Shown here piece after piece: positions 2,487-11,665 of a stretch of DNA of 64,000 bases (position 1 is the stretch's first letter; each line of letters begins with the position of its first letter). The stretch lies in assembly GCA_964632315.1 (NCBI GenBank), contig CAZWEM010000009.1, positions 32,001 to 96,000 on the forward strand, written 5' to 3'. The notes under the pieces are model-generated. The model made no database searches, was not told the origin of the DNA, and saw only the letters and a program-made list of their open reading frames with translations. A program made the translations under genes and the position numbers. Source of the DNA: an uncultured archaeon (GTDB lineage: Archaea > Asgardarchaeota > Lokiarchaeia > Sigyniarchaeales > SOKP01).

Positions 2487-3525
2487 CTATAGTCTCTTAA
2501 TAATTAACTCAGCCATTCTATTTGAGAAGCCCCACTCGTTATCATAGTAGGAAAGTATAAATACTTCATCTTCAATGACTTTAGTCCACATAGAACTAAA
2601 TACAGAACTATGGGAGTTTCCAATAATATCATGACTCACAATAGGATCTTCCACGTAGTCTAATATTCCTTTTAAGGCACCCATGGATGCTTCTTTCATT
2701 TTAGCATTTACTTCTTCAGGAGTGGTTTTCTTTTCAACTATTGCTTTCAAGTCAACTACACTCCCATCTATGGTGGGAACTCTTATAGCAATACCGTCTA
2801 ATTTACCACTGAGTTCAGGAAATACTAAACCAATTGCCTTAGCAGCTCCAGTGGATGTAGGAATCATATTTTGAGCAGCAGCTCTGCCCCTAATCATCTT
2901 TTCAGGTGCACCTGCTCTAGCAATATCCGCTGTAGATTGATCGTTGGTGTATGAATGAATAGTTGTCATCAAACCATATTTGATGTTGAAATTTTCGTTC
3001 AGAACTTTTACAACAGGGGCTAAGCAGTTCGTCGTACATGAAGCATTTGAAATGATTTTATGCTCATCAGTTATTTTATCATCATTACATCCTAAAACAA
3101 CTGTAAAGTCGGGATTTGATGCTGGAGCGCTGATTAATACTCGTTTAGCTCCCGCAGTTAAGTGTTTAGATGCTCCATCTCTATCAGTAAATCTGCCAGT
3201 GGATTCCACTGCAACATCGATATTATTTTGACCATGTGGAAGATTTGCTGGATCTCTTTCTGCTGTTATTGGGATCTCCTTACCATCGATAACTAAAGAG
3301 TGTTCTTTAGCCTCAACTTTTCCTTTAAATTTCCCAAATACGGTATCATACTTTAATGCATAAGCTAGATATTTTGGATCGAAAAGATCATTAATCGATA
3401 CAATATCTATGTCATTCCAGTAGTTAGCGTATACTGCGCGAAAGAAGAGTCTTCCGATTCTGCCGAAGCCATGATTACTCCGTTAGCGAAGAGCTTAACG
3501 GATTTATACTGACTCGTTTCGCCAT
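2487..3525 (-). CDS. gap: Class I (bacterial/eukaryotic-type) glyceraldehyde-3-phosphate dehydrogenase, 335 aa after removing a 31-nt intron; exons 3525-3504 and 3472-2487
   Basis: Spliced N-terminus MAKRVSINGFGRIGRLFFR; YALKYDTVFGKF; catalytic SNASCTTNCLAP; YDNEWGFSNR. Exon 2 is open and in frame with the track ORF 2487..3209. Confidence 0.95.
3473..3503 (-). other. Putative bulge-helix-bulge intron in gap mRNA (31 nt)
   Basis: 5'-GUCA GUAU AA|A UCCGUUAAGC UCUUC GCUAACGGA GUAA UC|A UGGC-3'. Exon helix GUCA/UGGC, central helix GUAU/GUAA (one G.A mismatch), 3-nt bulges AAA and UCA, intron stem UCCGUUA/UAACGGA. Canonical cuts give AUA AAU GGC (I-N-G). Confidence 0.8.
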
Positions 3526-3814
3526 TTTATTTTTTCACCTTTTAAATTATTTAATGTTATTTTTTGTTTTTATGAATTTTCAATTTAAAATTGCATGCTA
3601 GTATGTTTTCGATAGTTTTTTAATTTTCTAGTTATAAATTTTATATTTGATCTCTTCTACCTATACACTTTACTGTTAAAAGTATTGTATTTGGTGTTTT
3701 GATCCATCAAAATTTATCTCTTAATTTAAGAAAATTAGACGCAAGTTTTAATTACTTTTAATTTCAGTTTAAATTCAATTTTTAAATTAAAATTACATTA
3801 AAAAAGAAAAAATT

Positions 3815-11197: not shown

Positions 11198-11665
11198 TCA
11201 TGTCTTGGCTTTTTTCGCTGCCGTATCAGGTCGTAAGGGACTGGGACCTAATTCACGTATGGTTTTATCAAATGCAGTCGCTTCTTGTTGAAATTTTTGG
11301 CCTTCTGCTGCGGTACAATATCCCAAGTGGATTCTATTTTCACTAAGTCCCATTGATTTGAGTACTTCCTTGGTATATTCGACTTCTCGATACGCAAAAT
11401 AATTTCCAGTCTCATAATCGCATTCTTTAGGGTATCAACCAACAACCATTACTCCATCCGCCCCTCGTCCAAAGGATCTCATTATTAAATCAGAATCGAC
11501 CCTTCCCGTACAAGGCACTAATATCACGCGAATTGAGGTTGGATATTGAGCTCTAATTGTGCCTGCCATATCTGCACTGCCATATCCTCATTTTTAGAAG
11601 ACTTTCGAGATGAAAGTCTCATTCCAACACAGGAAGGCAATGATCTTTATATCTTCTTCTGCCAT
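11198..11665 (-). CDS. mvhD: Hydrogenase iron-sulfur subunit D (MvhD/VhuD/FlpD) selenoprotein, 145 aa; Sec16 (UGA 11590-11588), Sec67 (UGA 11437-11435); 30-nt intron 11621-11592
   Basis: Spliced: [47 protein letters not shown]...GADGVMVVGUYPKECDYETGN...CTAAEGQKF...ELGPSPLRP. Absent from the ORF track. Confidence 0.93.
11592..11621 (-). other. Putative bulge-helix-bulge intron in mvhD mRNA (30 nt)
   Basis: 5'-UCCUGUG UUGG AA|U GAGACUUUC AUCUC GAAAGUCUU CUAA AA|A UGAGGA-3'. Central helix UUGG/CUAA, bulges AAU and AAA, 9-bp intron stem, in-frame UAA. Canonical cuts give UGU UGG AAA UGA (C-W-K-U). Confidence 0.82.

What the first reader, a model, noticed from the sequence alone, without database searches (positions are those of the whole stretch)
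3473..3503. 31-nt BHB intron splits the GAPDH NAD-binding motif INGFGRIG
Unspliced translation gives MAKRVSINPLSSSLTE* and the rest of the gene is frameshifted, with no alternative start that keeps the Rossmann strand. Structure: GUCA/UGGC exon helix, GUAU/GUAA central helix (one G.A mismatch, so a relaxed BHB), bulges AAA and UCA, intron stem UCCGUUA/UAACGGA. Cutting AA|A and UC|A gives AUA-AAU-GGC-UUC-GGC and a normal-length 335-aa enzyme. The other ~1 kb has no lesions, which argues against a decaying pseudogene. Inference: glycolytic or gluconeogenic flux could depend on splicing.
Basis: partly seen in the sequence, partly recalled or inferred. Interest (0 to 1): 0.92.

Follow-up and report, generated by a model that had tools for sequence, protein, structure and literature searches.

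The report
tRNA-type mini-intron in Asgard GAPDH gene
The only GAPDH gene found in this Asgard (Promethearchaeota) archaeon is split after codon 8 by a 31-base hairpin insert shaped like the introns that the tRNA-splicing enzyme cuts, so the enzyme can probably be made only from a spliced mRNA, although RNA proof for this gene is still missing.

Summary
On the minus strand a class I GAPDH gene (ATG at 3525, stop at 2489-2487) carries a 31-nt insert, 3503-3473. Unspliced, it reads MAKRVSINPLSSSLTE*. Removing the insert gives MAKRVSIN-GFGRIG and a 335-aa protein.

All 19 relatives' genomes with the gene, one metagenome locus and the nearest database proteins (95% and 94% identical) are uninterrupted at exactly this point. 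An independent DNA data set carries the insert, so it is not an assembly artefact.

The insert folds with its exons into a relaxed bulge-helix-bulge motif, and the canonical cut sites fall on the one register that restores the gene. The genome encodes a two-subunit EndA of the kind reported to accept relaxed motifs, plus RtcB. The gene body is under strong purifying selection (dN/dS 0.03). No other GAPDH was found.

I confirmed two more inserts of the same build in this genome, in mvhD (same window) and TBP. The mvhD insert is shared with a second species.

Best reading (about 0.8): a young, species-specific, EndA-spliced mRNA intron. No spliced RNA was seen for gap. A very recent inactivating hairpin insertion remains the main rival.

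This scan has already noted the same kind of intron many times on other Asgard DNA. In the papers I could search it is described only for crenarchaeal cbf5.

The parts
3504..3525 (-). gap exon 1: ATG plus 7 1/3 codons (MAKRVSI + first base of N8)
   Evidence: relatives read M[AT]K[RN]V[AS]IN at the same place
3473..3503 (-). 31-nt BHB-type intron, containing the in-frame TAA of the exon-1 frame (3477-3475) and a TAA of the exon-2 frame (3485-3483)
   Evidence: absent from 19 relatives, L025 and the 94-95% identical proteins; present in an independent DNA contig
2487..3472 (-). gap exon 2: last two bases of N8, G9 to L335, and the TAG stop; class I GAPDH body with SCTTNC catalytic Cys and TIHSYT His
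   Evidence: homologues carry PF00044 + PF02800; dN/dS 0.03
3510..3514 (-). outer helix h, 5' strand (AGUCA, exon 1)
   Evidence: MFE fold
3506..3509 (-). central helix H, 5' strand (GUAU, exon 1)
   Evidence: sequence; pair check
3503..3505 (-). bulge 1 (AAA); predicted cut between 3504 and 3503
   Evidence: geometry
3479..3502 (-). intron hairpin h': 7 bp, bulged A, 2 bp, loop UCUUC
   Evidence: unique in the genome at up to 3 mismatches
3475..3478 (-). central helix H, 3' strand (GUAA, intron)
3472..3474 (-). bulge 2 (UCA); predicted cut between 3473 and 3472
3467..3471 (-). outer helix h, 3' strand (UGGCU, exon 2)
3535..3540 (-). AGGTGA ribosome-binding-like motif 10 nt upstream of the ATG; relatives have a matching GTGA there
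   Evidence: sequence inspection
11592..11621 (-). second intron of the same build in this window: a 30-nt BHB insert in mvhD, just before the first Sec (TGA) codon
   Evidence: 14 of 15 orthologues read C-[WYL]-K-TGA-G-Y-G without it, and G016 shares it

Best explanation
The 31 nt at 3503-3473 are a bulge-helix-bulge (tRNA-type) intron in the gap pre-mRNA. In the transcript, exon 1 (AGUCA-GUAU) pairs with exon 2 (UGGCU) and with the 3' end of the insert (GUAA). The insert's own 9-bp hairpin forms the inner helix. This leaves two 3-nt bulges, AAA and UCA, four base pairs apart on opposite strands. The genome's two-subunit splicing endonuclease EndA would cut after the second base of each bulge, and RtcB would join the exons. 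The product is ...AUA AAU GGC UUC..., an mRNA for a normal 335-aa class I GAPDH with an intact INGFGRIG NAD-binding motif. The unspliced RNA gives only a 16-aa peptide. The intron is young: it is confined to this species. It lies where the exon sequence could already form the outer helix. SHOWN: the anatomy, the exact restoration of the gene, its absence from relatives, its presence in independent DNA, the presence of the enzymes, purifying selection on the gene, and sister introns in the same genome. INFERRED: cleavage and ligation of this particular RNA in vivo.
For: (1) The canonical BHB cut sites coincide with the one register that restores the frame and the universally conserved IN|GFGRIG. 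(2) Nineteen relatives' genomes (43-91% aa identity), metagenome locus L025 (88%) and the nearest database proteins (95% and 94%, both 335 aa) are uninterrupted exactly there. (3) A DNA contig from a different study covers 3358-3581 with no differences or gaps, so the insert is real DNA. (4) Shuffled inserts pass the BHB test in 17 of 200,000 trials. Genome-wide, a motif of this quality occurs about 6e-6 times per position and length. (5) The machinery is present. One EndA paralogue has Tyr/His/Lys and is most similar to the catalytic subunits of crenarchaeal (alpha-beta)2 enzymes. A second paralogue lacks the His. RtcB is present. Asgard (alpha-beta)2 EndA with the L1 loop is reported to have broad specificity (PMC5829648). 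(6) The gene is not decaying. dN/dS against the closest genome is 0.03 with saturated dS. There are 10 lineage-specific aa changes against 9 in the sister. The catalytic Cys and His, the start codon and the upstream motifs are intact. (7) No other class I or class II GAPDH was found in a 99.5%-complete genome. (8) Introns of the same build occur in the same genome. The mvhD insert (30 nt, central helix 4/4) restores C-W-K-Sec as in 14 orthologues, and G016 shares it with 8 substitutions and the stem kept. The TBP insert (30 nt) restores IQNI-VASGDL. (9) An RNA-library contig identical to this organism covers 3130-3453, which is consistent with transcription.
Against: No spliced RNA, circular intron or peptide has been seen for gap, and the identical RNA contig ends 19 nt before the 3' splice site. 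The central helix is weak, with only two Watson-Crick pairs, one wobble and one G.A. In the nearest-neighbour model the BHB fold scores -11.6 kcal/mol against an MFE of -18.4. Only one species has the intron, so there is no covariation evidence for it. If some process tends to insert hairpins, BHB-like placement would arise by chance in about 4% of cases. My ab initio genome-wide census could not separate true mRNA introns from noise.
Confidence: 0.8

Rival explanations
1. The insert is a very recent inactivating insertion of a hairpin-forming 31-mer. The gap gene is then a fresh pseudogene that only by chance resembles a BHB substrate.
For: The insert is confined to one species, and even a 95%-identical relative lacks it. 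No spliced RNA was seen. The central helix is imperfect. With the hairpin given, chance BHB placement is about 3.6%.
Against: No further lesion has accumulated, and there is no acceleration of amino-acid change. No replacement GAPDH was found. The same sequence occurs in metagenomes from different studies. At least two other conserved genes in the same genome (TBP, mvhD) carry inserts of the same size, hairpin type and cut-site logic. That pattern is not expected of random damage to essential genes.
Confidence: 0.13
2. The ribosome bypasses the insert by translational hopping. Peptidyl-tRNA-Asn takes off at AAU (3504-3502) and lands on AAU (3476-3474), skipping 28 nt and giving ...SIN-H-GFG...
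For: Matched AAU codons lie 28 nt apart with a hairpin directly after the take-off codon.
Against: The product would carry an extra His inside INGFGRIG, which none of about 140 inspected homologues has. No stop codon follows the take-off codon. Only 8 codons precede it, so a gene-60-type nascent-peptide signal cannot exist (the gene-60 features are from my own knowledge). The BHB geometry would be left unexplained.
Confidence: 0.02
3. The insert is an assembly or sequencing artefact of the metagenome-assembled genome.
For: The genome is a MAG with 8.6% contamination. The probable source run gave no laid contigs.
Against: A contig from another study and year covers 3358-3581 identically, insert included. 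Run shares of 0.6-0.9 of the sampled words were found in several studies.
Confidence: 0.02

Closest known systems
BHB intron in the cbf5 (pseudouridine synthase) pre-mRNA of Crenarchaeota (Watanabe 2002; Yoshinari 2006; Yokobori 2009, PMC2738675)
   Same: Both are protein-coding genes interrupted by a short intron that folds with its exons into a (relaxed) bulge-helix-bulge. Both hosts have a hetero-oligomeric (alpha-beta)2 EndA. In both, the intron is patchily present among relatives, indicating gain and loss.
   Different: The phylum differs (Asgard/Promethearchaeota) and so does the gene (class I GAPDH, central carbon metabolism). The intron sits at codon 8, inside the NAD-binding fingerprint. 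It is found in only one species so far. It is one of several such introns in the same genome rather than a single special case. Splicing has been shown experimentally for cbf5 but not here.
Archaeal tRNA BHB introns, including the heavily interrupted tRNA genes of Asgard archaea (Marck & Grosjean 2003; PMC11291895; bioRxiv 10.64898/2026.10.13.758758)
   Same: The hBHBh' geometry, cut positions, size range (about 10-30 nt) and enzymes (EndA, RtcB) are the same. Both show frequent recent gains.
   Different: The host RNA is an mRNA, so splicing has to restore a reading frame. [quoted passage not shown]
BHB element in a Haloferax volcanii mRNA 5' UTR (Schwarz et al. 2020, PMC7714728; content recalled, not re-read here)
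   Same: An EndA substrate in an mRNA.
   Different: That element lies in an untranslated region of a euryarchaeon whose EndA requires strict motifs. It does not interrupt a coding sequence.
Phage T4 gene 60 translational bypass (own knowledge)
   Same: A short non-coding gap with a hairpin inside an ORF, flanked by matched codons.
   Different: Here there is no stop codon after the take-off codon and no room for a nascent-peptide signal. The bypass product would break a conserved motif. See the rival explanations.

Membership tests
Archaeal bulge-helix-bulge (EndA-spliced) intron | [quoted passage not shown] | tested here: met
   Bulges AAA (3505-3503) and UCA (3474-3472) are separated by GUAU/GUAA. 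Three of the four positions pair (U-A, A-U, U.G) and one is G.A. This is a relaxed form, not the strict one.
Archaeal bulge-helix-bulge (EndA-spliced) intron | Flanking helices h (exon-exon) and h' (intron) | tested here: met
   h is AGUCA/UGGCU, 5 bp. h' is 7 bp plus 2 bp with loop UCUUC. Both appear in the MFE fold.
Archaeal bulge-helix-bulge (EndA-spliced) intron | Cutting after the second base of each bulge yields the functional exon junction | tested here: met
   The junction gives ATA AAT GGC, which is I-N-G, identical to the junction in 19 relatives, L025 and the closest proteins. Only this register passes the BHB test.
Archaeal bulge-helix-bulge (EndA-spliced) intron | The host encodes the splicing endonuclease (of a type that accepts relaxed motifs) and an RNA ligase | tested here: met
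   There are two EndA paralogues. The 207-aa one has Tyr/His/Lys and is nearest to 3P1Z_B, 3AJV_B and 2CV8. The 205-aa one has Ser in place of the His. RtcB scores 568 bits. Broad specificity of Asgard (alpha-beta)2 EndA is taken from PMC5829648.
Archaeal bulge-helix-bulge (EndA-spliced) intron | The intron is removed from the RNA in vivo (spliced junction or circular intron observed) | tested here: inconclusive
   Contigs of two RNA runs were laid. The contig identical to this organism ends at 3453. The contig that lacks the insert belongs to a relative about 95% identical whose gene is intronless. No spliced product was found in the protein collections.
Archaeal bulge-helix-bulge (EndA-spliced) intron | Structure conserved through compensatory change among homologous introns | not testable with these tools
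   Only one species carries the gap intron. For the sister intron in mvhD, G000 and G016 differ at 8 of 30 nt and keep 8 of 9 stem pairs and 3-4 of 4 central pairs.
Class I (bacterial-type) phosphorylating GAPDH | N-terminal NAD-binding Rossmann domain with INGFGRIG, C-terminal catalytic domain with SCTTNC Cys and a downstream His | tested here: met
   The exon-2 translation carries GFGRIG, NASCTTNCLAP and TIHSYT. Homologues at 75-95% identity carry PF00044 + PF02800 and are named type I GAPDH. The I-N of the motif is supplied by exon 1.
Programmed translational bypass (T4 gene 60 type) | Matched take-off and landing codons, a stop codon right after take-off, a nascent-peptide signal, and a functional product | tested here: not met
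   Matched AAU codons exist, but the next codon is CCG rather than a stop. Only 8 codons precede the site. The product would read IN-H-GFG, unlike all homologues.

The most novel reading that the evidence does not exclude
Asgard archaea of this genus are gaining tRNA-type micro-introns in ordinary protein-coding genes now. The gap intron arose after this species split from relatives that are still 95% identical in protein. It landed at a site whose codons already formed the outer helix (a proto-splice site). It is one of many in the genome, so synthesis of core proteins (GAPDH, TBP, MvhD) depends on EndA/RtcB splicing of mRNA and could be regulated through it. That would make enzymatic mRNA splicing and ongoing intron gain a normal feature of the closest archaeal relatives of eukaryotes.
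Probability: 0.5. Interest if true: 0.85.

Novelty: new member of a known kind. Interest (0 to 1): 0.62.

Why it matters
In the papers I could search, endonuclease-spliced introns inside archaeal coding sequences are documented only for cbf5 in Crenarchaeota. The two papers I opened on Asgard tRNA introns report none in mRNAs. A young, species-specific intron in the only GAPDH gene found, together with sister introns in TBP and mvhD, suggests three things. Asgard cells may routinely splice mRNAs with their tRNA-splicing enzymes. Such introns may still be arising. Gene callers will mis-annotate these genes as truncated or as pseudogenes: here the frame's first in-frame start codon gives only a 240-aa ORF. 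This bears on metabolic reconstructions from Asgard MAGs and on ideas about how interrupted genes began in the lineage leading to eukaryotes. The case is easy to test with one RT-PCR or by read mapping.

Tried and rejected
(1) RNA evidence. One call of read laying on two DNA and two RNA runs gave no joint. The probable source run X1 laid nothing. RNA run X11 gave an identical contig that stops at 3453. The insert-less contig of RNA run X9 has 16 differences in 349 nt and a different exon 1 (MAKRVAIN), so it comes from an intronless relative and is not our spliced mRNA.

(2) Ab initio census of BHB motifs in the whole genome combined with ORF-fusion tests. Counts did not exceed shifted-cut controls, apart from a small excess of in-frame 30-nt cases (96 against 63-79). 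The motif is too permissive in a 33% GC genome. The scan recovers gap, mvhD and TBP but cannot count the family.

(3) tblastn of 288 ORFs from 244 kb of the closest genome (G010) against this genome. No internal split gene was found in that sample. The method cannot see N-terminal micro-exons.

(4) Looking for copies of the intron hairpin elsewhere in the genome at up to 3 mismatches: none. A recently transposed repeat is therefore not supported.

(5) The search for related loci in genome contigs returned only bacterial GAPDHs at 52-58% identity and gave no taxonomy for the clade. In metagenome contigs it returned one close locus, L025, which is intronless.

(6) Exact look-up of the 240-aa ORF in public assemblies: nothing on record.

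(7) Searches of the 5.8-billion-cluster protein set for a 100% identical full-length or N-terminal spliced product: none. The best full-length hit is 95% identical and the best fragment 85%.

(8) +1 frameshifting through the insert was considered and rejected. It would put about 10 extra residues between I-N and G-F-G.

(9) A transposon footprint was considered. AAT recurs at 3504-3502 and 3476-3474, but the remaining CAT does not fit a simple target-site duplication.

Full report
THE OBSERVATION. On the minus strand the window holds a class I GAPDH gene. Its first 16 codons read ATG GCG AAA CGA GTC AGT ATA AAT CCG TTA AGC TCT TCG CTA ACG GAG TAA, which is MAKRVSINPLSSSLTE*. The rest of the enzyme, from G9 (GFGRIGRLFF...) to L335, is open without any stop from 3470 to 2490, but in another frame. 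In that frame a TAA lies at 3485-3483. The first ATG/GTG/TTG is the GTG at 3209, 87 codons into the protein. Nothing can therefore start translation of an intact Rossmann fold. Deleting 3503-3473 (31 nt) joins ATA A|AT GGC TTC GGC and gives 22 + 983 = 1005 nt, or 335 codons. The outer helix is in fact 5 bp (AGUCA/UGGCU). The inner stem continues for two more pairs beyond a bulged A, closing a UCUUC loop.

THE INSERT IS REAL AND LINEAGE-SPECIFIC. A search of 40 relatives' genomes found the gene in 32 of them. In all 19 full-length loci I inspected (43-91% amino-acid identity), the DNA reads M[AT]K[RN]V[AS]-I-N-G-F-G-R-I-G without interruption. A metagenome locus at 88% identity does the same. 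So do the nearest proteins in a 5.8-billion-cluster collection: 95% and 94% identical, 335 aa, starting MAKRVAINGFGRIG and MAKNVSINGFGRIG. The insert is not an assembly error. A 224-nt contig from a salt-marsh metagenome of another study and year covers 3358-3581 with no difference and no gap. The hairpin occurs nowhere else in the genome at up to 3 mismatches.

THE ORGANISM AND ITS SPLICING MACHINERY. Homologues are named Promethearchaeota, Lokiarchaeota or Thorarchaeota. The genome is 4.45 Mb, 33% GC and 99.5% complete, with 8.6% contamination. It has tRNA-Sec and many intron-bearing tRNA genes. It encodes RtcB and two EndA paralogues. The 207-aa paralogue keeps the Tyr/His/Lys triad. Its best solved relatives are the catalytic subunits of the crenarchaeal (alpha-beta)2 enzymes (3P1Z_B, 3AJV_B, 2CV8). 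The 205-aa paralogue aligns with it at 31% identity but has Ser where the catalytic His should be, as expected of a structural subunit. Kaneta et al. (PMC5829648) report that Asgard archaea have the (alpha-beta)2 EndA with the L1 loop. That is the type that cleaves relaxed, non-canonical motifs. A 2026 preprint finds two paralogues in 44 of 60 Asgard genomes.

IS THE BHB MORE THAN CHANCE? The geometry is h (AGUCA) - H (GUAU) - bulge AAA - h' hairpin - H (GUAA) - bulge UCA - h (UGGCU). This is the canonical order, and the canonical cuts (after the second bulge base) fall at 3504|3503 and 3473|3472. Three boundary registers would restore the gene, and only this one satisfies the motif. Shuffling the insert and asking for the same quality of motif at the true boundaries succeeds in 17 of 200,000 trials. 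Genome-wide, motifs of this quality occur about 6e-6 times per position and length. The test is weaker if one supposes a process that inserts hairpins. With the hairpin kept and its offset randomised, 3.6% of trials pass. The central helix is weak, with one G.A and one U.G. Thermodynamically the BHB fold (-11.6 kcal/mol) is less favoured than an open 7x7 internal loop between the same two helices (-18.4). I take that to be common for BHB motifs, which I assume the enzyme stabilises (my assumption, not tested here).

THE GENE IS ALIVE. Against the closest genome (G010), dN/dS is 0.03 with dS saturated. This lineage has 10 private amino-acid changes against 9 in G010. The catalytic SCTTNC and His, the start codon, the AGGTGA motif and the conserved upstream promoter-like block are all in place. 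No second class I and no archaeal class II GAPDH was found in the genome. Fifteen AOR-family genes exist. One could be a GAPOR, but by my own knowledge that enzyme works only in the catabolic direction. An RNA-library contig identical to this organism covers 3130-3453, consistent with transcription, but it ends before the junction.

SISTER INTRONS IN THE SAME GENOME. Following a lead from earlier notes of this scan, I checked mvhD in the same window. A 30-nt insert at 11621-11592 has a 9-bp stem with loop AUCUC, a central helix UUGG/CUAA with 4 of 4 pairs, bulges AAU and AAA, and an in-frame TAA. It interrupts C-W|K-Sec. Fourteen of 15 orthologues read AFLC[WYL]K-TGA-GYG without it, which is exactly the predicted spliced product. 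One species (G016) has a homologous 30-nt insert at the same site. It differs at 8 positions, has no stop codon, and keeps 8 of 9 stem pairs. Kept as an unspliced in-frame insert, it would break the CxxU motif. In TBP (G000:C18:19083-19112) a 30-nt insert has a 9-bp stem with loop AUAUC and a central helix with 3 of 4 pairs, the mismatch lying at the same position as in gap. It carries a TAA, and its removal restores IQNI-VASGDL. So three conserved genes carry inserts of one architecture: a hairpin of about 9 bp, a 5-nt pyrimidine-rich loop and a length of 30-31 nt. In each, the canonical cuts restore the conserved protein. Random damage does not explain that.

Earlier notes of the scan report more such introns in this genome (histone, gyrB, leuS, a chelatase, acs, SCP2). 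They also report over a thousand notes in at least 129 genomes, some with RNA contigs that lack the intron exactly. I did not re-test those and use them only as context.

WHAT I COULD NOT SHOW. I could not show splicing of the gap RNA itself. My ab initio census of BHB motifs plus ORF fusion could not separate true introns from noise. A 244-kb homology sample found no further internal intron. I therefore cannot state how many mRNA introns the genome has.

VERDICT. The most likely reading (about 0.8) is a young, species-specific BHB intron that EndA and RtcB must remove before GAPDH can be made. The main rival (about 0.13) is an inactivating hairpin insertion so recent that no second lesion has accumulated. 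Translational bypass (AAU to AAU, 28 nt) would insert a His into INGFGRIG and lacks the gene-60 hallmarks. An assembly artefact is excluded by the independent DNA contig. The mechanism is that of the crenarchaeal cbf5 intron (PMC2738675). The new elements are the phylum, the gene, the recency, and the company of sister introns. In the papers I could search, mRNA introns of this type are not described for Asgard archaea. This scan has already noted them repeatedly on other DNA.

Noticed in passing
window 11592-11621 (minus strand), mvhD: A 30-nt BHB insert with an in-frame TAA sits one codon before the first Sec (TGA) codon of mvhD. Removing it gives C-W-K-U, as in 14 orthologues. G016 (L222) has a homologous insert at the same site without a stop codon.
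   Followed up: yes
G000:C18:19083-19112 (+), TBP gene (L205): A 30-nt hairpin insert with a TAA lies between the two TBP repeats. The canonical BHB cuts restore IQNI-VASGDL. It has no outer helix and 3 of 4 central pairs, so it is a relaxed HBh'-type motif.
   Followed up: partly
window about 3600-3632 (minus strand) and the same place in L002-L017: A block of about 30 nt (ctaaaaaattaaaaaacta.cga.cacata) lies 75-105 nt upstream of the gap ATG. It is conserved across the genus and retained here. It is probably the promoter or an operator.
   Followed up: no
G000 contigs C74, C80, C90, C103, C105, C106, C109, C112, C113: These short contigs have very GC-rich sequence, unlike the 33% GC genome. 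They are probably the source of the MAG's 8.6% contamination.
   Followed up: no
window 3124-3472 versus RNA run X9: A metatranscriptome contig about 95% identical continues upstream of 3472 directly into ATGGCAAAAAGAGTCGCAATTA. It comes from a co-occurring relative with an uninterrupted gap gene that appears to be expressed.
   Followed up: partly
window 11204-11664 (minus strand): mvhD has two in-frame TGA codons at conserved Cys positions (C-W-K-U and V-V-G-U). One TGA is also found in nearly all orthologues in relatives, and tRNA-Sec is present on C35.
   Followed up: no
G000 genome-wide: There are fifteen aldehyde:ferredoxin oxidoreductase (AFOR_N) paralogues, three of them on the window's contig C9.
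   Followed up: no
L003 and other relatives, codons 4-10 of gap: In intronless relatives, the exon sequence around the insertion point (GAGUCG...AAU GGUUU) can already form most of the outer helix in the same register. This may be a proto-splice site that favoured intron establishment.
   Followed up: no
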